Source: a virus | Strand: one strand, 5' to 3' | DNA length: 64,000 bases | IMG/VR virus record: IMGVR_UViG_3300007072_000007 | Coordinates: 1 to 64,000 of that record | In this document: positions 2,133 to 52,659 of the stretch, piece after piece | How positions within the stretch are numbered: the first letter of the stretch is position 1 | How the letters are laid out: each line of letters begins with the position of its first letter | Translations under genes and position numbers: made by a program | Notes under the pieces: generated by a model | What the model was told of the DNA's origin: nothing | The model's database searches: none | The model's input: the letters and a program-made list of their open reading frames with translations, nothing else

Positions 2133-2163
2133 GGCCTTTCGTTGGTCTGGTCGGCCAGGTAGT

Positions 2164-2180
2164 ATTTACGCTGCGTAGAA
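2164..2180. promoter_or_regulatory. Degenerate copy of 17-bp palindrome (ATTTACGCTGCGTAGAA)
   Basis: 2 mismatches; just upstream of the RBS of the 2192 gene. Confidence 0.7.
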
Positions 2181-5432: not shown

Positions 5433-5494
5433 GGGGTGGACGTTCTCCCCTCGCTGCGGTTATCATGTTCCGGTAGTCGAAACAGGAGTCAAAC

Positions 5495-31083: not shown

Positions 31084-31111
31084 TTGACAACGTGAAAAGC
31101 GGCGATATACT
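31084..31111 (+). promoter_or_regulatory. Sigma70-type promoter
   Basis: TTGACA-16-TATACT; second TTGACA at 31065. Confidence 0.75.
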
Positions 31112-31338: not shown

Positions 31339-33813
31339 ATGCGGTTCACGCTAGAGAACGCGCGTAGCGCGCTTCAGCGGCATTGGGGGCACGCCGACTT
31401 TCGGCGGAGTCAGGTTCCCGTCATCGAGGCCGTCGCGGCAGGGAGCGACGTGCTCGCCGTCCTCCCGACCGGCGAGGGCAAGTCGGCCTGTTTTCAGATT
31501 CCGGCTCTACTCGACACCGAGCGCACCGCGCTGGTGGTCTCTCCGCTTATCGCGCTGATGAAGGATCAGTGCGATGATGCGGAACGACGCGGCATCGCCG
31601 CGTCGTTCGTCAACTCGCACATCGACGAGGCAGAAGCCGACGCTCGCCTGCGGCGTCTGGCCGACGGGGAGTTCCGGCTGTTCTACGTCTCGCCGGAGAC
31701 CCTGAAGACCCGCCGGTTCCGCGCCGCGCTCCAGCAAACCCGCGTCAGTTACTTGGTCGTTGACGAGGCGCATTGTCATCCGGCGGGAACCCGGATTAGC
31801 ACACCGACGGGGGATGTACCCATCGAAACCATCCAAGCCGGAGACGCGGTGTACGCCTACGACGGTCAGCGTGTTGTTGTGCGTCGCGTCACGGAGACGC
31901 AGGTAAAGTTCGTGGGTTGTCGCCGCCTGTTGCGGCTGGTGGCCCCATCGGGTAGCGTATTGCTCACGGACGACCATCCGGTGTTCGTGATCGGCAAAGG
32001 ATATGTCGCAGCGGGTCAGGTCAACACGGGCGACGAAGTGCTGCTTCTGCGGTCGGGTATTTCCCGACAGGCATTGGGAGCGGACGGGGGCGAGGGGGAG
32101 GCGTGTTCACTGACGTTCGCACAGCGGAGCGCGTCGGTCGCTGGACCTGAGGCGGGATGCGCGGTTGTCCGCTGCCGGGTGGACCGTGTTGAGGTTGTCG
32201 AACGACCTGATTACGACGAAACCGGACCGCGCGCGTGGGATGATCGAGTCGTGTTTGCGCTCACGGTCGCTGGCGAGCACAACTACTTCGCCGAAGGAAT
32301 CCTGACGCATAACTGTGCGTCACGCTGGGGGCACGACTTCCGGCCCGCCTACCTCCAGATTGCCGACTGTCTGCGGTACATCTCGCAAGTCTGCCCGGAG
32401 TGCGACGGCGACGCCGCAACCGTGGACGCCGAGGGCAACACCGTCGCCACCTGCGCCGCCTGTGGGGGGCGCGGCGGCACCCGACCGCAGATCATCGCCG
32501 TAACCGCAACGGCCACCGGCGACATCGAAGCGGACATCATGCGGTCGCTGGGCGTCACGGGCGATTACACGCGCATCGTCGCCGACCCGATCCGCCCCAA
32601 CCTCGATTATCGAGTTGTGTTCGCCGACAACGACTTGGAGACCTTCAAGCGCGTCGTCGGCCAGTGGGACATCGTGAACGGTCGGCACATCGTCTATGTC
32701 GGCACACGGAAGATGGCCGAACTACTCACGAAGATCATCGCCGAGCAGATCGGGTTCCGCACGTTGGGACCGGAGGCGAAGGCGTTGTCGTGGCAGGACC
32801 GTTGCCGTGCCGCGTATGCGGCCGGAGCCGAGCGCGTCGCGTTCTACCATGCGGGCATGAAGCGCGACGATTCGGTGGAGCGCGACGAGGACGGGCGCAC
32901 GCGGAAGGTGCTGGGGCGTGTGACCGTGCAGGAAAACTTCAAGTCGGGTCGCACGCCGGTCGTGGTGGCGACCTGCGCGTTCGGCATGGGCATCGACGTG
33001 CCGAACATCCGTAACGTCCTCCATTTCGGCGTGCCGGGCTGTCTGGAGGATTACGCGCAGGAAGCCGGGCGTGCCGGTCGGGATGGACAGCCCAGTGCGG
33101 TAACGATCATCTACTCCGAAAAGAGCGTATCGCTTCGGAAGTGGTTCATCGACCAGTCCAATCCGCGCCGGGAACTGTATGACCTTGTGTGGTCGTACCT
33201 GCTGGACCAGACCAAGCGGGTGCGTGTTCTGCGCAAGTCGGCGGCGTCCATCGCCTACGAGTTATGTGCGGAGCACGGCCCCAACACCATCACCGACGCG
33301 CAGGTACACTCCATCCTGTCCGCGTTGGAACTGCGCCGGGTCATCCGCCGCGCTCCCGCCGCCAGCGGCAGCGAGATCAAAGTCAACGTGGCGAAACTGC
33401 GGGCGGCGGCGAGCAACCCCGAACTGAACCGGACCGAGCGGGAGGTTGCCGACTACCTGCTGAATACCGTGGTTGAGCCGACGTTGGGCGGCACGGACCT
33501 GAAGACCCTGGACGTGGTTCTGGACCGCGAGGACATCGCCAACGCCGTGTCGCGGTCGGAAGCCACCGTCAAGCGTGCCCTGGACACGCTGGAGGAGGAC
33601 TATGGCGCGATCACGGTGTCGCCCACGTTCAACGGCAAGTCCACCGAACTGCTGTCGCGCCCCGACGTGCTGGACGACGTGCTTCCGTGGGATGAGATCG
33701 AAGCCAAGCGCGCCCGCGAAATCGCGCGGTTGGAGCGCATGCTGTCGTATTGCCGGTCCAGCGACAAGCGGCAGGCCATCCGAGACTACTTCCTGAAGGG
33801 TCCGGTCAGGTGA
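31339..33813 (+). CDS. recQ: RecQ-family DNA helicase containing an intein
   Basis: LPTGEGKS, VVSPLIALMKDQ, DEAH|C..WGHDFRP, TATAT, YHAGM, ATCAFGMGID, QEAGRAGRDG. Confidence 0.92.
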   Translation: MRFTLENARSALQRHWGHADFRRSQVPVIEAVAAGSDVLAVLPTGEGKSACFQIPALLDTERTALVVSPLIALMKDQCDDAERRGIAASFVNSHIDEAEADARLRRLADGEFRLFYVSPETLKTRRFRAALQQTRVSYLVVDEAHCHPAGTRISTPTGDVPIETIQAGDAVYAYDGQRVVVRRVTETQVKFVGCRRLLRLVAPSGSVLLTDDHPVFVIGKGYVAAGQVNTGDEVLLLRSGISRQALGADGGEGEACSLTFAQRSASVAGPEAGCAVVRCRVDRVEVVERPDYDETGPRAWDDRVVFALTVAGEHNYFAEGILTHNCASRWGHDFRPAYLQIADCLRYISQVCPECDGDAATVDAEGNTVATCAACGGRGGTRPQIIAVTATATGDIEADIMRSLGVTGDYTRIVADPIRPNLDYRVVFADNDLETFKRVVGQWDIVNGRHIVYVGTRKMAELLTKIIAEQIGFRTLGPEAKALSWQDRCRAAYAAGAERVAFYHAGMKRDDSVERDEDGRTRKVLGRVTVQENFKSGRTPVVVATCAFGMGIDVPNIRNVLHFGVPGCLEDYAQEAGRAGRDGQPSAVTIIYSEKSVSLRKWFIDQSNPRRELYDLVWSYLLDQTKRVRVLRKSAASIAYELCAEHGPNTITDAQVHSILSALELRRVIRRAPAASGSEIKVNVAKLRAAASNPELNRTEREVADYLLNTVVEPTLGGTDLKTLDVVLDREDIANAVSRSEATVKRALDTLEEDYGAITVSPTFNGKSTELLSRPDVLDDVLPWDEIEAKRAREIARLERMLSYCRSSDKRQAIRDYFLKGPVR
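31774..32313 (+). mobile_element. Mini-intein (180 aa) in RecQ motif II
   Basis: Starts CHPAGTRI, block B LTDDHPV, ends HNYFAEGILTHN followed by Cys; removal restores DEAHCASRWGHDFRP; no LAGLIDADG domain. Confidence 0.92.
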
Positions 33814-37092: not shown

Positions 37093-37984
37093 TCGAACAC
37101 CTGCACCTGCGCGCCGTCCGCTGTGCTACGGGCGGAGTTACGGACGCGAGGGCCTCTGCGCCTCCTGTCCGTTCGCTTCGGAGTGCCGCCGCGTCTGCGC
37201 CCAGTGGTCTGGCGTGTTGTCGCTGGCGGAAGCGTCCCAGCGCGCCCTGGATGCCTTCCGCAGTTCGCTCGCGGACCGGAAGCCGGACGGGACGCTTTAT
37301 GAGCGGGTCTATGCGGACGTGTACGGCCGCAGGCCGAACCCGAAGTCGAAGTGTGCCTACGACTACGCGATGTTCCAGGTCGTTGAACTGTGCGGACGGA
37401 AGGGAATCGACCCCGCTGTTTATGTTCGCGCTCAGATGGAATCCCTGCGTGATGCCGTGCAGCGAATCAAGGTTCGCGGCAGGAGTCTGGGCTTCCAGCC
37501 GAACATGCTGTTCGGATTACGGGCCATGTACCGCTACGAGGCTTTCCGCTCCGCTGCGGAGAAGCGGTACGGGGCGAAGTTCGCGTCGGCTTTCTCCGAG
37601 CGCGGAAAACTCGAAACGATGCTGGTCGAGTTGACCGAAGCGGAGACGGAGTACGGGGAATCGTTGTTGTCAGGCGCGCGCTTTTCCGGTCCGCCGTTGT
37701 GGTCTGCGCTGCGTCTGGAAGGGGCGAGTCCAGAGGGCCGAAGGATTCGGCGCGACTACGGTTCCGACGTGGTGGACAGGATGATTCGCGCCGCTTTCAT
37801 GGCTGCCGCCTGTGCCGTCGCCAACCGCCGTCGTGCCGGTTTGGCGAATCGCATCGGCATCACGACGCCCGACGACGTGGAGTGGGACGACATCATTGCC
37901 GCCGTTCGGCGGTACGCCCCCGATTGTCCGCGCGATTTACGCAGCGTAAATGTGGTCGGCGAGTGGCTTCCCGGTCAGGCTTGA
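37082..37984 (+). CDS. Hypothetical protein with N-terminal Cys cluster
   Basis: CYG...CASC...EC; precedes the replicative helicase. Confidence 0.6.
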   Translation: MRIDRTPAPARRPLCYGRSYGREGLCASCPFASECRRVCAQWSGVLSLAEASQRALDAFRSSLADRKPDGTLYERVYADVYGRRPNPKSKCAYDYAMFQVVELCGRKGIDPAVYVRAQMESLRDAVQRIKVRGRSLGFQPNMLFGLRAMYRYEAFRSAAEKRYGAKFASAFSERGKLETMLVELTEAETEYGESLLSGARFSGPPLWSALRLEGASPEGRRIRRDYGSDVVDRMIRAAFMAAACAVANRRRAGLANRIGITTPDDVEWDDIIAAVRRYAPDCPRDLRSVNVVGEWLPGQA

Positions 37985-38077
37985 TTTACGCAGCGTAAAT
38001 AGGGCCGCGCGTATCTCCTGTCGGCTTGATTTACGCAGCGTAAATAGGGCCGCGCGTGGCTTCCCGGTCAGGCTTGA
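37935..38077. repeat. Cluster of three perfect palindromes (37935, 37984, 38029) within interleaved direct repeats
   Basis: 35-bp ggcttgatttacgcagcgtaaatagggccgcgcgt x2 and 22-bp gtggcttcccggtcaggcttga x2. Confidence 0.95.
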
Positions 38078-38101
38078 CTTCTGTTGCGTTTGTGCTACTG
38101 T
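38074..38101 (+). promoter_or_regulatory. Possible promoter of the helicase-primase operon
   Basis: TTGACT-16-TACTGT with TGn extension. Confidence 0.5.
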
Positions 38102-38118
38102 ATCGGCGTTGCGGTGAA

Positions 38119-38226
38119 CGGGTGGCTTCCGTCGAGTGCCGGGTGCTTGGCGTCGTAAGGCGTCAACCCTCCTGCCGCAAACCAGCGGGTACACCACAAC
38201 CCCCGGCACTCGACGGAAGCCACTCG
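38119..38226 (+). other. Long stem with internal hairpins (structured leader RNA or cruciform)
   Basis: 22-bp perfect inverted repeat 38122-38143/38202-38223; internal GTAA-tetraloop hairpin. Confidence 0.75.
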
Positions 38227-38232
38227 TCCTAC

Positions 38233-46896: not shown

Positions 46897-46913
46897 ATTT
46901 ACGCAGCGTAAAT
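46897..46913. repeat. Perfect palindrome ATTTACGCAGCGTAAAT
   Basis: Immediately after the SSB stop codon. Confidence 0.95.
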
Positions 46914-46942
46914 CGGTCCGGCATCGTGCCGGACCGATTTAC
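46908..46942 (+). terminator. 16-bp hairpin overlapping the palindrome (terminator-like)
   Basis: gtaaatcggtccggca-TCG-tgccggaccgatttac. Confidence 0.6.
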
Positions 46943-46959
46943 TGCTATCCGGGGGCATC

Positions 46960-47304: not shown

Positions 47305-48343
47305 CCGGGCCGCAGCCAAAGACGATATCGACGGCGTGGTGCGCGGTGTCGTGGCCGGTTTGAGGGCGACGAAAATCGGCAAGGAGTCGAGCGTCCAGTT
47401 GTTCGGGGAGGACACCGAAGCCGACGTGCGCGAGTGGATTTCTACGGGGTTTCCGAACATCGACGCGATATTCGGCGGGGGCTGGCCCGTAGGGCGCATC
47501 TCCGAACTGAGCGGTGCGGAAGCCAGCGGTAAGTCCGCGCTGGCCGATTTCAGCATCGTGCAGGTGCAGAAGATGGGCGGCTACGCCGTGGTTCTAGATT
47601 TCGAGAACACGAGGACGAAGGATCGCCTTGTTCAATGTGGGGCCGACCTGAATCGAATCGTGTTCCCCCGTCCGCAGACCGCCGAGCAGGGCTGGGAAAT
47701 CGTCTGGCGTCTGATGGATGAGATTGTTGGTCAGAAGAACAAACCGCCGGTCCTGTTCGTGTGGGACTCCCTGGGCGGTACGGATATCGAGGATGCCGAC
47801 CAGCCCGGCGGGCTGGCCCGCGTCATGTCGAAGCACCTGCGCCGTCTTTATCATCGCGCCCCTTCCGTTCGGGCGCATTTTCTGTTCGTGAATCAGGAGC
47901 GGGACAAGTTCGGCGGTAGGTCGTTCATCAGGGAGACGGATACGCCTGGCGGTCGTGCTCTCAAGTTCGCCTGCACGATACGCGCCCAGTGCCGAGCGTG
48001 GTATCTACCTCGCAAGGGCGTTCCCAAGACGGGTTTGTGTTGCTCGGTCAGGACCATCAAGAACAAGGTGGTCGCACCGAACCAATCGACTCAATGGGTG
48101 CTGGACTTCGCGCACGGTCCGTCTCCTGAGTTGACGGCGTTGCATCACGGTCTCGAAACACGGTGGGTCAAGACCGTTTCCGGCCTCTACACCTGCCCGC
48201 TTCTGGGCAGGGTGAGTCGCGCAGAGTGGGTCGCCCGCCTGCGGGGGGATTCCGACCTTGCGAGGCAGGTTTGGGATGAGTTGCGCCGGCGTTCGGCTGG
48301 TCCCGCAGGCGATGATGACGACGATGACGATGACGAATGTTAG
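47270..48343 (+). CDS. recA: RecA/UvsX-like recombinase
   Basis: ISTG, GGGWPVGRISELSGAEASGKS, VWDS, FVNQ.R, TPGGRALKFA, KNKV. Confidence 0.9.
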   Translation: MERAKAHRRPANRAAAKDDIDGVVRGVVAGLRATKIGKESSVQLFGEDTEADVREWISTGFPNIDAIFGGGWPVGRISELSGAEASGKSALADFSIVQVQKMGGYAVVLDFENTRTKDRLVQCGADLNRIVFPRPQTAEQGWEIVWRLMDEIVGQKNKPPVLFVWDSLGGTDIEDADQPGGLARVMSKHLRRLYHRAPSVRAHFLFVNQERDKFGGRSFIRETDTPGGRALKFACTIRAQCRAWYLPRKGVPKTGLCCSVRTIKNKVVAPNQSTQWVLDFAHGPSPELTALHHGLETRWVKTVSGLYTCPLLGRVSRAEWVARLRGDSDLARQVWDELRRRSAGPAGDDDDDDDDEC

Positions 48344-48373
48344 CGGCATTTACGGACTGCTCGTACTTTTCGC

Positions 48374-48414
48374 TTGACATGCCGTAAATGCTGGGGTATT
48401 ATCGCAGCGTAAAT
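48374..48414 (+). promoter_or_regulatory. Promoter of the parB-like gene overlapped by degenerate palindrome copies
   Basis: TTGACA(48374)-17-TATTAT(48397); ATTATCGCAGCGTAAAT at 48398-48414 and CTTGACATGCCGTAAAT at 48373-48389. Confidence 0.85.
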
Positions 48415-48453
48415 CGAACCCCGACGGGTTCGTAGGTCATTACGAGGTGTTCC

Positions 48454-49527
48454 ATGTCCGAGACGTTTTCACTGGGTAAGCGGAAGAACAACGCCGCGCT
48501 CGCCGTCGTTCCCATCTCGTCCGTCGAGATCAAGGAAGGCTACAACCCCCGCGCCGACCTCGGCGACCTGACCGAACTTTCGGCCAGCATCGCAAAGGAG
48601 GGGATTATCGAACCCCTCATCGTGCGCCCGCAGTCAGGGAAGGGGGCCAAAGAGGGGCACTACTGGATCGTCGCGGGGGAGCGCAGGTACAGGGCGGCGA
48701 AGAAGGCGGGTGTCGAGTCTGTGCCGTGCGTCGTTCGCACTGACCTGTCCGATGACACGGACGCCTTGTGCGTCAGTGTCGCCGAGAACAGCGAGGAGGG
48801 GCGCACGCCGTTGACGGCCATCGAACTCGGTAGGACGTTCGCGCGGCTGGCCAAGACCGGCTTGAGTCCGAACGCCATTGCCGCGCGGACGGCGACCAAT
48901 CATCAGAAGGTCCGCCGCGCCCTGGCCATCGTTACCGCGTCTCAGGAGGTCCAGCAGCGCGTCGCGTCGGGCGACCTGGGCATCATGGCCGCGAGCGAAC
49001 TCGCTACGCTGAAGCCGAAGGAGCAGGCGAAGGTCGTGTCCGCGTTGCCGAGCGGCGCGACGGCTCAGGACGTGAAGCGGGCCGTGCGCGAGGTGCTGGA
49101 TTCGACGCCATCGGCCCGCCGCCCGTCGAAGGCGGGCCGGGCCAAGACCGTCGCCAGCCCGGTATGGCGGGGGGCGCGCGAGAAGCAGCGGCTCATCAAC
49201 GCGCTGTCCTACTCCTTCCTTCACCCGGACCCCGACGAGAACTTCGACACGCTTTCCGGTGCGCTGGGCGTCCTGCTTTGGGAGCGCCAGAACCTCGATA
49301 CGCCTGTTTTCCCGCTCCTGGTTGGGAAGGACGGTCGCGTGATTGCCGACCCGCCCGAAGACGCGACGGCGGCCGAGAAGAAGGTCTATAAGGCGACCTA
49401 CTACCTCGTCGCCAAGTTCGCCGAGGACCATGCGAAGTCGGTCAACGCGGACGCCTCCAAGGACGCGACGGACGATTCCGATGAGGCTCTTTCGGACGAC
49501 GGTGCGGACGAAGGCGCGGACGAGTAG
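48454..49527 (+). CDS. parB: ParB/Spo0J/KorB-family protein
   Basis: NPR, LSASIAKEGIIEPLIVR, IVAGERRYRAAK (box II), AEN..R, central HTH 'LSPNAIAARTATNHQKVRRAL'. Confidence 0.9.
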   Translation: MSETFSLGKRKNNAALAVVPISSVEIKEGYNPRADLGDLTELSASIAKEGIIEPLIVRPQSGKGAKEGHYWIVAGERRYRAAKKAGVESVPCVVRTDLSDDTDALCVSVAENSEEGRTPLTAIELGRTFARLAKTGLSPNAIAARTATNHQKVRRALAIVTASQEVQQRVASGDLGIMAASELATLKPKEQAKVVSALPSGATAQDVKRAVREVLDSTPSARRPSKAGRAKTVASPVWRGAREKQRLINALSYSFLHPDPDENFDTLSGALGVLLWERQNLDTPVFPLLVGKDGRVIADPPEDATAAEKKVYKATYYLVAKFAEDHAKSVNADASKDATDDSDEALSDDGADEGADE

Positions 49528-49537
49528 GCTTCGGTAC

Positions 49538-49567
49538 GGCCCAGACGGGTTCCACGTCTGGGCCTTT
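49538..49567 (+). terminator. Terminator-like hairpin after parB
   Basis: ggcccagacg-7nt-cgtctgggcc followed by ttt. Confidence 0.6.
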
Positions 49568-49581
49568 CCCTTCGGTGTGTT

Positions 49582-50382
49582 ATGGCTGCTATCTGGGTCG
49601 AGGATTGCGCAACGACCATGCGCACTAGGCTGGAGCCGGATTCGGTGGACCTGTTGTTTGCCGACCCCCCGTTCAACCTCGGTCAGGACTACCTTGGGTA
49701 TGACGATAACAGGGAGGACTTTTCGGCGTATCTGGCGGAGCGCATCCGGTTGTGCCCCCGCGTTGTTCGCCCCGGCGGTGCGGTTGTATGGCACGTTCCA
49801 GACCGTTGGGCGGCACTGACCTACACGGTCCTGGCCGAGACGTTGGAGCCGGTCAACTGGATTATTCTGCATCAGGAGTTCGGCCAGTTTTCCGACGGGC
49901 GCTTTATCGTGTCGAAGGTGCATTGCCTGTATTTCGCAAAGCCAGGCGGGAAGCGCACCTTCAACGTGGAGGAGGTATTGGAGCCGTCGGCCCGCCTGCT
50001 CAGCGGCGACAAGCGCGTTTCGGAGAGCCGCTACGGGGGGATGCGGCCTTTTCTCGACGTGTGGTACGGCCCGTATCTCGGACGGGTGCAGGGTAACAGC
50101 GCGGAGCGTTGCAAGGCCCATCCCAACCAACTGCCGGAGATGTATCTGGCTCGCATCGCCCGCGCGCTGTCGAACTCCGGCGACGTGGTGTACGACCCGT
50201 TCGTCGGGAGCGGGACTACGCTGGTGGTCGCCGAGGCGTTGGGTCGGCGCGCCTGCGGGAGCGAGATTTCCCCGGACGCAGCGAAGTCGGCCCGCGAGCG
50301 CGTTCGGCGCGGTCCCGTGCGGAACGTTTCGGGTTCGTTGGTTACTCGTTCGGACGCGTCGGGGCCGGTGAGTGATGAGTAG
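49582..50382 (+). CDS. DNA N6-adenine/N4-cytosine methyltransferase (beta class)
   Basis: DPPF motif precedes DPFVGSGTT. Confidence 0.9.
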   Translation: MAAIWVEDCATTMRTRLEPDSVDLLFADPPFNLGQDYLGYDDNREDFSAYLAERIRLCPRVVRPGGAVVWHVPDRWAALTYTVLAETLEPVNWIILHQEFGQFSDGRFIVSKVHCLYFAKPGGKRTFNVEEVLEPSARLLSGDKRVSESRYGGMRPFLDVWYGPYLGRVQGNSAERCKAHPNQLPEMYLARIARALSNSGDVVYDPFVGSGTTLVVAEALGRRACGSEISPDAAKSARERVRRGPVRNVSGSLVTRSDASGPVSDE

Positions 50383-51454: not shown

Positions 51455-52441
51455 ATGTCGCCGTGTCCGGTGATTGTGGACGCTCCCAGCGTCATCAAGC
51501 GGGCCATATTCGCGTCCGTTATGGACGACTTTCGCGCCGGGATATGGACGGGGGGTATTTACGGGGCTACGGCTATGCTTGCGAGCGTGCTGTCGCATGT
51601 GCCTCCCCCGCGATGCACGGCCGGTCCCGTGGTGGCCATGTTCGACGGGGGTATCCCGCCGCACAGGAAGGCGGCGATACCGGGCTACAAGTCGGGCCGC
51701 GAGGAGCGGCGTCGCTTGCTGACGGAGGACCAGCATGAAAAGGCGATGGCGCAGGTGGGCGAGACCCGAAAGTTCTGGGAGACGCTGGGCGTCCAGTGTG
51801 CCGCCTACGGGGATTACGAGGCCGACGATGCGGTGGCGGCGATGGTCCGGCTTACGGTGTCGATGGGGTGTCGTCCGATTGTGGTCAGCGGGGACCGCGA
51901 CCTGTATCAGACGGTCAATATGGGCGCGTCGATGTGGGACGTGGCCGCGCGCCGGCTGGTGGATGCCGTGTCCTTCAAGTCTTTGGTCGGGGTGCTGCCG
52001 AACCAGTATGTCGTTTACCGTGCCCTCGTGGGCGACTCGTCGGATTCAATCCGGGGGGTTCGCGGTGTAGGCCCCAAGCGGGCCGTCGGTCTGGTCCAGG
52101 AGGCGGCCGGCACACATGGTTTGCCGTCTGTGATGCTTTCCCGCATCGTCAAGCATTTACGCAGCGTAAATCCACGTTTGGAGTGGCAGCAGGCTGTTAT
52201 CGACGACGAGGCGCGGTTGAATAAGGTTATTGTCGGCATCGACCTGTCCGGTTCGTTTTCGGACTACGTTTCACTGCGCCGTCTGGTCCTGTCGTCGTCG
52301 AAGCCAGCCCGAAGCGGGTACGAGTCGGCCTGTCGGAAGTACCGATTCTTTCGTTTTCTGGATGAGGCGTCGGTTTATCTGGAGCCGTTCGTTCGGGCGG
52401 CTACGGTTTCGATTCCGCTGGAGGAGGGTTTGCCATGCTGA
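51455..52441 (+). CDS. 5'-3' exonuclease/flap endonuclease (PolI 5' domain/T4 RNase H-like)
   Basis: YKSGR, EADD, SGDRDL, GDSSDSI.GV.GVGPK. Confidence 0.9.
   Translation: MSPCPVIVDAPSVIKRAIFASVMDDFRAGIWTGGIYGATAMLASVLSHVPPPRCTAGPVVAMFDGGIPPHRKAAIPGYKSGREERRRLLTEDQHEKAMAQVGETRKFWETLGVQCAAYGDYEADDAVAAMVRLTVSMGCRPIVVSGDRDLYQTVNMGASMWDVAARRLVDAVSFKSLVGVLPNQYVVYRALVGDSSDSIRGVRGVGPKRAVGLVQEAAGTHGLPSVMLSRIVKHLRSVNPRLEWQQAVIDDEARLNKVIVGIDLSGSFSDYVSLRRLVLSSSKPARSGYESACRKYRFFRFLDEASVYLEPFVRAATVSIPLEEGLPC
52155..52171. repeat. Perfect palindrome inside the exonuclease gene
   Basis: ATTTACGCAGCGTAAAT, read as HLRSVN. Confidence 0.95.
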
Positions 52442-52659
52442 CGGTGACACGGAACAGCGGGCAGTCGGTGGTGTTGGTGGACTCGCGGACGAACGACCTG
52501 ATTGCGGTCGTCATCGTGTTTCGGGCGAAGGGAAGTAACTGTATCTCCGTGTCGGTCGGCGCGCCGTCGTCCGTGCGCATCTCGCGCGAGGAGTTGTTGT
52601 CGCCGGTGGACGACAAGGGCGTCCTGGAACTCGTGCGCCGCCTGCGAGGAAAGGCTTAG
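52435..52659 (+). CDS. csrA: CsrA/RsmA-like RNA-binding translational regulator
   Basis: MLTVTRNSGQSVVL...VGAPSSVRISREEL; RBS GGAGG. Confidence 0.8.
   Translation: MLTVTRNSGQSVVLVDSRTNDLIAVVIVFRAKGSNCISVSVGAPSSVRISREELLSPVDDKGVLELVRRLRGKA

What the first reader, a model, noticed from the sequence alone, without database searches (positions are those of the whole stretch)
48346..49567. parB is a self-contained unit with palindrome copies over its -35 and -10 boxes (autoregulation)
Seen: a near-consensus promoter TTGACA-17-TATTAT. ATTATCGCAGCGTAAAT overlaps the -10/+1 region and CTTGACATGCCGTAAAT overlaps the -35. An inverted half-site pair gcatttacgg/ccgtaaatgc (48346-48355/48382-48391) flanks the -35, and a hairpin follows the gene. 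Inference: weaker degenerate sites over its own promoter would repress parB only after the perfect sites are filled. This is the strongest in-sequence link between the motif and ParB.
Basis: partly seen in the sequence, partly recalled or inferred. Interest (0 to 1): 0.8.

Follow-up and report, generated by a model that had tools for sequence, protein, structure and literature searches.

The report
Phage ParB promoter carrying its own operators
A large uncultured phage scatters one 17-letter DNA palindrome along its genome, and weakened copies sit on the promoter of its lone ParB gene, so ParB probably switches itself off much as the plasmid regulator KorB does, though binding is untested.

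Summary
TTGACA-17-TATTAT (48374-48402) precedes a genuine ParB gene (48454-49527). A 15/17 copy of the palindrome ATTTACGC-W-GCGTAAAT covers the -10 and start region. Two 9/10 extended half-sites form a perfect 10-bp inverted pair around the -35. A hairpin follows the gene.

The record has 15 perfect palindromes in 74 kb, against 0.04 expected by chance. parB's is the only sigma70-like promoter with copies inside its core.

Syntenic relatives (PolA-SSB-RecA-ParB-FEN) carry a related palindrome, TTGACAC-N-GTGTCAA, 17 to 57 times per genome. In five separate lineages one copy starts exactly at the -35 of the parB promoter. The window's own -35 site looks like a decayed hybrid of that ancestral operator.

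For it: ParB is the only recognisable sequence-specific DNA-binding protein conserved across the group, no ParA was found in four records, two of them near-complete genomes, and its N-terminal and DNA-binding domains match ParB/Noc/KorB. Against it: two ParB-bearing relatives show no motif, and residue-to-base covariation is weak.

"Self-contained unit" is not supported. No terminator lies upstream, and the methylase gene starts 17 nt after a weak hairpin.

Unchecked notes from this scan report orphan phage ParBs with palindrome lattices on other DNA. Verdict: a new variant of the KorB kind, of moderate interest.

The parts
48346..48355 (.). Upstream half-site GCATTTACGG, 9/10 to the extended half-site GCATTTACGC. 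Left arm of a 10-bp inverted pair, roughly 55-60 bp upstream of the inferred start.
   Evidence: The GC flank recurs at other sites.
48374..48379 (+). -35 hexamer TTGACA of the parB promoter
   Evidence: 11/12 match with TATTAT at 17-nt spacing
48373..48389 (.). Hybrid, decayed operator CTTGACATGCCGTAAAT. The left half resembles the relatives' half-site TTGACAC and the right half resembles the window's GCGTAAAT. It sits where relatives have a full palindrome.
   Evidence: 11/17 to the window consensus by my count.
48382..48391 (.). Half-site CCGTAAATGC in the -35/-10 spacer. Right arm of the 10-bp inverted pair.
48397..48402 (+). -10 hexamer TATTAT
48398..48414 (.). 15/17 copy of the palindrome (ATTATCGCAGCGTAAAT) over the -10 and inferred start. 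Its two mismatches are the bases that turn ATTTAC into the -10 TATTAT.
48415..48432 (+). Small 7-bp-stem hairpin in the 5' leader (CGAACCC-CGAC-GGGTTCG). Role unknown.
   Evidence: not better than shuffles
48444..48449 (+). Shine-Dalgarno-like GAGGTG, 4 nt before the ATG
48454..49527 (+). parB, 357 aa: ParB_N plus ParB HTH plus a family-specific helical C-terminal domain. It has no ParA partner.
49538..49564 (+). GC-rich hairpin (10-bp stem, 7-nt loop) followed by TTTCCCTT. A weak or leaky terminator candidate.
49582..50382 (+). N6/N4 DNA methyltransferase gene starting 17 nt after the hairpin. Probably read through from the parB promoter.

Best explanation
The parB promoter is a negatively controlled member of a phage-wide operator network.

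A dimeric protein recognises ATTTACGC-W-GCGTAAAT. This is most likely the phage's own partner-less, CTP-clamp-type ParB. At parB it would occupy the 15/17 copy over the -10 and start, and the two half-sites around the -35. That would block RNA polymerase, so ParB limits its own synthesis, and probably that of read-through genes downstream.

Shown: the sites, their statistics, the promoter geometry, the ParB fold and motifs, the lack of ParA, and conservation of an operator on the parB promoter across relatives.

Inferred: that ParB is the binder, that binding represses, and that weak promoter sites fill after the perfect sites.

Evolutionary reading (inferred): the ancestral operator (TTGACAC-N-GTGTCAA) coincided with the -35. 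When specificity drifted to TTTACGC in this lineage, the -35 copy decayed and a new copy was built over the -10.
For: - Site statistics and positions.
- parB's is the only one of 15 sigma70-like promoters with motif copies inside the core. At the other promoters, sites or half-sites lie upstream of the -35.
- Fifteen perfect sites in the 74-kb record. Ten are intergenic or abut stop codons. Five are intragenic, all in one reading frame (xLRSVN), which points to selection on the DNA.
- The relatives are syntenic.
- The related palindrome occurs 17, 57 and 33 or more times in G001, G002 and G003.
- It starts exactly at the parB -35 in L009, L010, L011, L012 and L115, 77-97 nt before the first in-frame start codon in the four where I could fix one.
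- In G001 only 5 of 12 strong promoters carry it, so it marks a regulon and is not simply part of every promoter.
- ParB has ParB_N (7.7e-19) plus HTH_ParB. GERRxRA, N31-P32-R33 and E111-N112 are kept. The AF2 model has pLDDT 89 and matches ParB, Noc and KorB (8qa9_B TM 0.72).
- No ParA in four records, including two near-complete genomes.
- XRE-type HTH proteins are present but are not orthologous between genomes.
- Pfam and PHROG scans of about 50 other ORFs found no other sequence-specific regulator that is conserved.
- A contig whose end matches the end of this record (78.6% identity over 70 nt) keeps the identical 17-mer. It includes a 5 x 27-bp tandem array resembling a plasmid centromere.
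- KorB precedent: PMC11790492, PMC13768133.
Against: - No binding or expression data exist. No RNA run was listed.
- Two syntenic relatives (L005, with two tandem ParBs, and L007) have the ParB but no detectable dispersed palindrome in about 20 kb.
- The ParB recognition helix varies widely among relatives that share one motif. The only covariation hint is His to Asn in the two lineages with altered inner bases.
- All motif-bearing relatives except the end-matching contig (L146/L153) were found through ParB or its neighbour RecA, so the ParB-motif link is confounded by shared descent.
- Many ORFs have no annotation, and one could encode the true reader.
- CTP-closed ParB clamps leave their loading site, so steady occlusion of a promoter is not guaranteed.
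- Most sites are not at promoters.
Confidence: 0.55

Rival explanations
1. Another regulator, not ParB, reads the palindrome. This would be an unannotated phage protein, or the small XRE-type HTH at 1908-2132. parB would then be just one repressed member of that regulon, with no autoregulation.
For: - The ParB link is purely inferential.
- A 17-bp site with a central base is also typical of Cro/CI-type operators (my own knowledge).
- A weak HTH_3 ORF lies 32 nt upstream of a 2-mismatch site.
- ParB-bearing relatives L005 and L007 lack the motif.
- There is little clean covariation in the ParB recognition helix.
Against: - The XRE proteins of G000, G001 and G002 are not orthologous, whereas the motif family is clearly homologous across these phages.
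- No other recognisable DNA-binding protein is conserved.
- An operator on the parB promoter is retained in six lineages.
Confidence: 0.25
2. The copies at the promoter are ParB loading or nucleation sites like the others, or act positively. They do not repress parB. The overlap with the -10 and -35 would then have little regulatory effect, because CTP-bound clamps slide away.
For: - KorB alone is a poor repressor and needs clamp-locking partners (PMC11790492, PMC13768133).
- VirB and BisD are ParB-family activators.
- Elsewhere in the record, full sites end 4-5 nt upstream of a -35, which is a geometry compatible with activation.
Against: - A dimer sitting on -10/+1 and on the spacer is the classic geometry for steric repression.
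- The position over the -35 is conserved in five relatives.
- No KorA-like partner was found, but none was excluded either.
Confidence: 0.12
3. Classical ParABS partition of a plasmid prophage. The palindromes would be centromeres, and parB autoregulation would be of the P1 or F type.
For: - ParB fold and tandem arrays of sites (27-bp spacing) resemble plasmid centromeres.
- P1 and F autoregulate their partition operons (PMC11790492).
Against: - No ParA (PF13614) in four records, including a complete genome with terminal repeats.
- No (L/F/I)G(K/R)G(L/F/I) ParA-contact motif at the N-terminus (motif from PMC12704722).
- Sites are spread over the whole genome, not clustered beside parB.
- parB sits in a replication and recombination module.
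Confidence: 0.04
4. The promoter-proximal half-sites are chance matches with no function.
For: The -35 'copy' is only 11/17, and half of it is simply the -35 consensus.
Against: - Three half-sites fall within 67 bp, about 3e-4 after correction even against the raised background.
- There is a perfect 10-bp inverted pair.
- The position is conserved in relatives.
Confidence: 0.02

Closest known systems
KorB and its OB operators on IncP-1 plasmid RK2 (PMC11790492, PMC13768133; structures 8QA8, 8QA9, 1R71)
   Same: - A ParB-family protein with a CTP-type N-domain and an HTH.
- One short odd-length palindrome (OB core TTTAGCSGCTAAA) dispersed over the replicon, some copies at promoters and some far from them.
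- An operator on the promoter of its own operon.
- The structural match of the model to 8qa9_B is TM 0.72.
   Different: - KorB has the ParA partner IncC and the clamp-locking partners KorA and TrbA. None was found here.
- The host here is a phage of roughly 100-150 kb (by CheckV's completeness estimate and its relatives) with terminal repeats in a relative, not a plasmid.
- There are 15-57 sites rather than about 12.
- By sequence this protein is nearer chromosomal ParB/Noc (1e-25) than KorB (8e-12).
- The C-terminal domain is different.
Noc and its NBS sites (Bacillus; 7NFU, 7OL9)
   Same: - The best sequence and fold matches.
- An orphan ParB paralogue without ParA.
- Many palindromic sites dispersed over a genome.
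- The palindrome has ATTT...AAAT ends.
   Different: - Noc acts in division-site control through a membrane-targeting N-terminal helix, and no such role can be inferred here.
- The spacing between the TTT and AAA blocks differs: 9 bp here against 6 bp (my own comparison).
Autoregulated partition operons of P1 (ParB/parS) and F (SopB/sopC)
   Same: A ParB-family protein represses its own promoter, and phage P1 is a precedent in a phage.
   Different: Those systems need ParA or SopA as the operator-binding co-repressor and have one clustered centromere. Here there is no ParA, and the sites themselves lie on the core promoter.
Cluster O mycobacteriophages (Corndog): more than 30 copies of the 17-bp palindrome TGTTCGG-NNN-CCGAACA (PMC4351075)
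   Same: - A non-temperate-looking phage with a 17-bp dyad-symmetric repeat dispersed genome-wide, partly intergenic and partly inside genes, mostly not at promoters.
- A ParB-like domain protein is encoded and there is no parA.
   Different: - The authors left the binder unknown and did not link it to the ParB-like protein.
- No copy on that gene's promoter was reported.
- The phage group and the motif are unrelated.
VirB (Shigella pINV) and BisD (ICEclc), ParB-family transcription regulators
   Same: ParB-fold CTP-binding proteins that have been redeployed from partition to gene control on mobile elements.
   Different: Both activate or counter silencing from a few sites. They are not known to use a genome-wide lattice or core-promoter operators on their own gene.

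Membership tests
ParB/Noc/KorB superfamily (CTP-switch DNA clamps) | ParB N-terminal (CTPase-fold) domain with GERRxRA and the NPR and EN motifs | tested here: met
   PF02195 at 7.7e-19. G75-E76-R77-R78, N31-P32-R33 and E111-N112 are invariant or nearly so in the family alignments.
ParB/Noc/KorB superfamily (CTP-switch DNA clamps) | Helix-turn-helix DNA-binding domain following the N-domain | tested here: met
   PF17762 at 4.1e-5, above its cut-off. The profile matches Noc, Spo0J, ParB and KorB across both domains. Foldseek gives TM up to 0.72.
ParB/Noc/KorB superfamily (CTP-switch DNA clamps) | CTP binding and hydrolysis, with clamp closure at the cognate site | not testable with these tools
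   Only motif conservation can be shown.
ParB/Noc/KorB superfamily (CTP-switch DNA clamps) | Canonical C-terminal dimerisation domain (PF23552) | tested here: not met
   No PF23552 hit. Residues 235-345 form a family-specific helical domain with a long helix at 306-341. Dimerisation is plausible but not shown.
KorB-type global operator network | One palindromic operator repeated at dispersed positions over the replicon | tested here: met
   15 perfect copies in 74 kb against 0.04 expected. Relatives have 17-57 copies.
KorB-type global operator network | An operator on or next to the promoter of the regulator's own gene | tested here: met
   for the window. for five relatives. This is sequence-level evidence only.
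KorB-type global operator network | The ParB-family protein is the operator reader | not testable with these tools
   Inference from conservation and the lack of alternatives.
KorB-type global operator network | ParA partner (IncC) and a clamp-locking co-repressor (KorA/TrbA) | tested here: not met
   No PF13614 match in G000-G003. No KorA-like protein was recognised, but small unannotated ORFs remain.
ParABS partition system | Adjacent or genome-encoded ParA ATPase, and a ParA-contact motif in the ParB N-terminus | tested here: not met
   The N-terminus reads SLGKRK and does not fit (L/F/I)G(K/R)G(L/F/I) (motif from PMC12704722).
Sigma70-type promoter | -35 and -10 hexamers at 16-18 nt spacing, upstream of the gene | tested here: met
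   11/12 match with a 17-nt spacer, 52 nt before the ATG. The start site is not mapped, and no RNA run was listed.
Intrinsic terminator | GC-rich hairpin followed directly by a U-tract | tested here: inconclusive
   The 10-bp stem folds at about -24 kcal/mol, but z = -1.5 against shuffles and the tail is UUUCCCUU. The next ORF starts 17 nt later.

The most novel reading that the evidence does not exclude
A whole family of large (about 95-150 kb), virulent-looking phages uses a partner-less CTP-clamp ParB as a chromosome-wide organiser or regulator. It would be loaded at 15-57 palindromes tiled along the genome and held in check by an operator on its own promoter. Operator specificity has drifted within the family (TTGACAC, TTTACAC, TTTACGC). 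In this lineage the drift made the operator incompatible with a consensus -35 and forced the feedback operator to move to the -10. If so, this is a traceable case of a regulator, its operators and its promoter evolving together.
Probability: 0.4. Interest if true: 0.8.

Novelty: new variant of a known kind. Interest (0 to 1): 0.55.

Why it matters
Orphan ParB proteins are common in phages, and their function is an acknowledged open question (PMC12704722). Genome-wide palindromes in phages such as Corndog have had no known reader since 2015 (PMC4351075).

This locus offers a compact, directly testable pair:
- one 357-aa protein
- one 17-bp site
- one 80-bp sigma70-type promoter that should work in E. 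coli

It also comes with natural variants of both the site and the protein in relatives. It would also show how a feedback operator tracks a change in binding specificity.

Tried and rejected
Relatives came from the search for related loci instead.
- The exact 17-mer was not found in viral contigs.
- Single-protein searches for ParB and RecA relatives found nothing useful. Alignment queries worked.
- No RNA holder was listed for the region, so there is no expression or start-site evidence.
- I tested whether the palindrome is itself a promoter (TTTACG as a -35). No -10 lies at the right distance at any perfect site (by eye), so I rejected this.
- I considered the palindrome as a terminator and rejected it. 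The stem is too short and no U-tract follows. Only the copy at 46897 is part of a larger hairpin.
- I considered a methyltransferase target, since the core holds GCWGC. I rejected this because relatives have other cores.
- I considered a host-factor site. It is unlikely because the motif differs between related phages.
- De novo searches for a dispersed palindrome in L005 and L007 gave nothing convincing. The only lead is two copies of CCAACAA-W-TTGTTGG in L005.
- The more distant ParB-less clade (L123-L136) has no motif of this family. This is confounded by phylogeny and by the short loci. My exact-repeat test also misses imperfect motifs.
- Covariation between the ParB recognition helix and half-site bases gave only a two-lineage hint.

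Full report
**What is at the coordinates**

The window is the first 64 kb of a 74,244-bp IMG/VR virus record. CheckV rates it about 53% complete. GC content is 63% and every convincing gene is on the + strand.

At 48374-48402 lies TTGACA, a 17-nt spacer and TATTAT. This is an 11/12 match and one of two promoter-like hits in 44-54 kb. A GAGGTG ribosome-binding site follows, then an ATG at 48454 that opens a 357-aa ORF.

- ATTATCGCAGCGTAAAT (48398-48414) matches the palindrome at 15/17 and covers the -10 and the inferred start.
- GCATTTACGG (48346-48355) and CCGTAAATGC (48382-48391) form a perfect 10-bp inverted pair with 26 bp between the arms, bracketing the -35.
- CTTGACATGCCGTAAAT (48373-48389) matches at only 11/17.
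- A 10-bp-stem hairpin sits at 49538-49564.

The two mismatches of the 15/17 copy are exactly the bases that turn ATTTAC into the -10 hexamer TATTAT. The site looks shaped by two constraints at once.

**The palindrome is real and genome-wide**

ATTTACGC-W-GCGTAAAT occurs 13 times perfectly in the window and 15 times in the record. Four further copies have 2-3 mismatches. Chance would give 0.04.

Ten of the perfect copies are intergenic or abut stop codons. The five intragenic copies all lie in one reading frame and encode xLRSVN. That argues for selection on the DNA rather than on the protein.

Pairs and triplets occur at 27-28 bp and 45-49 bp spacing.

Twelve half-sites lie outside perfect copies, and three of them are at the parB promoter. 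My Poisson estimate for that clustering is about 3e-4 after correction.

Of 15 sigma70-like promoters on the coding strand, only parB's has motif copies inside the core. At 5437 and 8379, full sites end 4-5 nt upstream of the -35. At 31084, 45100 and 71877, single half-sites lie 12-19 nt upstream.

**The protein**

Pfam finds ParB_N (7.7e-19) and HTH_ParB.

About 170 clusters at 50% identity share the full-length architecture, including a family-specific C-terminal domain. The GERRxRA motif, NPR and E111-N112 are conserved.

The family profile hits Noc, Spo0J and ParB at about 1e-25 and KorB at 8e-12. An AlphaFold model (pLDDT 89) superposes on ParB, Noc and KorB over roughly the first 210 residues, with TM 0.72 to 8qa9_B.

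The canonical C-terminal dimerisation domain is absent. Helices at 241-341 replace it.

No ParA (PF13614) exists in this record or in three relatives, two of which are 98-100% complete. The N-terminus lacks the ParA-contact motif. This is therefore an orphan ParB, a class noted as widespread in phages with unknown function (PMC12704722).

Loci found through ParB and, separately, through RecA share the order PolA, SSB-like, RecA, ParB, (methylase), FEN, SbcD, SbcC.

They carry a related palindrome, TTGACAC-N-GTGTCAA, whose half-site matches the window's TTTACGC at 5 of 7 positions. L006 has the intermediate TTTACAC.

Counts per record, allowing up to 2 mismatches to TTGACAC-N-GTGTCAA (for G002's 57, to its TTGACA-NNN-TGTCAA form):

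| Record | Sites | Length | Note |
|---|---|---|---|
| G001 | 17 | 143 kb | 98% complete |
| G002 | 57 | 150 kb | terminal repeats, complete |
| G003 | at least 33 | 95 kb | |

Reversed-pattern controls gave zero in each.

In L009, L010 (G001), L011 (G002), L012 (G003) and L115, one copy begins exactly at the -35 hexamer of the promoter in front of parB. In the four where I could fix a start codon, it lies 77-97 nt before the first in-frame start; the window's distance is 80 nt. L006 has two direct half-sites there.

In G001 only 5 of 12 strong promoters carry the palindrome, so it marks a regulon and is not part of every promoter.

The window's 11/17 '-35 copy' occupies the same position. Its left half is TTGACAT, the ancestral type, and its right half is CCGTAAAT, the window's type. 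I read it as a decayed ancestral operator. Once the half-site became TTTACGC it could no longer coincide with a consensus -35, and a fresh copy was built over the -10. That history is inference.

**Who reads the sites**

ParB is the only recognisable sequence-specific DNA-binding protein conserved across these phages.
- XRE-type HTH proteins exist in each genome but are not orthologous.
- Pfam and PHROG scans of about 50 other ORFs gave replication, recombination and structural functions or nothing.
- A more distant clade has RecA directly followed by FEN with no ParB there, and shows no motif of this family. This is only weak support because it is confounded by phylogeny.
- A contig whose first 70 nt match the last 70 nt of this record at 78.6% keeps the identical 17-mer 8 times. 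It includes five copies at exact 27-bp spacing, an arrangement reminiscent of plasmid centromeres.

- L005 (two tandem ParB paralogues) and L007 show no convincing dispersed palindrome in about 20 kb.
- The recognition helix varies among relatives that share a motif. The only covariation hint is Asn in place of a near-invariant His in the two lineages (the window and G002) whose inner half-site bases differ.
- There are no binding or RNA data.

**How it most likely works**

Site-bound ParB dimers on -10/+1 and on the spacer and upstream half-sites would block RNA polymerase. That would give negative feedback on parB.

A caveat comes from KorB: CTP-closed clamps slide off their loading site and repress poorly without a locking partner. 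No such partner was found here.

**'Self-contained unit' is not supported**

recA ends at 48343 with no terminator before the promoter. The methylase ORF starts at 49582, 17 nt after a hairpin that has a broken U-tract and z = -1.5 against shuffles. My scans list no promoter-like sequence (at least 9 of 12) between 48402 and 62476.

The parB promoter may therefore also feed the methylase, a RecD-like helicase, FEN and further genes.

**Comparison and novelty**

The system works most like KorB with its OB operators on RK2 (PMC11790492, PMC13768133). By sequence the protein is nearer ParB and Noc.

It fails the membership tests for a ParABS partition system (no ParA, no contact motif). It also lacks KorB's partners.

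The nearest phage observation is the unexplained 17-bp palindrome of Cluster O mycobacteriophages, which also encode a ParB-like protein (PMC4351075). I found no paper describing a ParB-read palindrome lattice in a phage.

Notes from this scan report the same pairing on other phage DNA, including a motif, TTGACGC-W-GCGTCAA, that falls between the variants seen here. Those notes are unchecked leads, not support.

I class the finding as a new variant of a known kind, of moderate interest. The promoter evidence is solid at the sequence level. The ParB link is the best-supported inference, and I put it at about 0.55.

Noticed in passing
window 52435-52659 (+): A 74-aa ORF matches CsrA (PF02599, 4.6e-6, just under the cut-off). 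This would be a phage-encoded RNA-binding global regulator, sitting right after the FEN gene.
   Followed up: no
window 31339-33813 (+): A DEAD-box/Helicase_C protein is interrupted by a Hint/intein-like segment (about residues 146-325). A perfect palindrome overlaps its stop codon.
   Followed up: no
window 37935-38227: Three perfect palindromes lie 49 and 45 bp apart. A TTGACT promoter-like site follows, then a 26-nt inverted repeat (96% complementary, 58-nt loop) just upstream of the DnaB-like helicase and primase genes. This is a candidate origin or main loading cluster.
   Followed up: partly
window 46897-46945: The right half of the perfect site after the SSB-like gene pairs with a downstream ATTTACTGC across an inner hairpin. 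Together they form a stem of about 19 bp (-33.5 kcal/mol, z = -4.8).
   Followed up: partly
L146 7184-7308 and L153 (contig Ga0101944_10003471); L156 306-376: A contig whose first 70 nt match the last 70 nt of this record (78.6% identity) carries the identical 17-mer 8 times. Five copies are at exact 27-bp spacing, upstream of an HNH endonuclease and several DNA methylases, one of them with an intein. A third contig has three sites at 27-bp spacing upstream of an NAD-dependent DNA ligase.
   Followed up: partly
G002 (L085-L092), e.g. 108017, 62593, 8127: About 15 of the 57 sites in this complete 150-kb relative belong to a composite promoter. Each has a second palindrome (TTTCCGCGTCATGCGGAAA-like) about 7 nt upstream, then TTGACA-NNN-TGTCAR, then a TAC/TAT -10-like element, then a conserved GGTCC...GGACC leader hairpin. 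parB is driven by one of these.
   Followed up: partly
L005 8792-9913 and 9971-10942: This relative has two tandem ParB paralogues between RecA and FEN and none of the family's palindrome. Two copies of CCAACAA-W-TTGTTGG sit at gene junctions (3259, 11293).
   Followed up: partly
window 2159-2180: A 2-mismatch copy (ATTTACGCTGCGTAGAA) starts at the last base of a TAGTAT -10-like hexamer, 5 nt before the first start codon (GTG 2186) of the 1077-aa ORF. It lies 32 nt after a weak XRE-type HTH ORF (1908-2132). This is a possible second case of a degenerate site over a start region, but the -35 is poor.
   Followed up: no
window 28371, 36121, 40009, 44417, 55205, 57766, 59617: The variant half-site ATTTACAG/CTGTAAAT is also over-represented: 5 copies in 40-60 kb against 0.16 expected. 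Most copies are inside genes.
   Followed up: no
ParB N-termini in alignment A1: All relatives have a 40-70-aa Lys/Ala/Pro-rich N-terminal tail that the window's ParB lacks. Its ORF can extend only 6 codons upstream.
   Followed up: no
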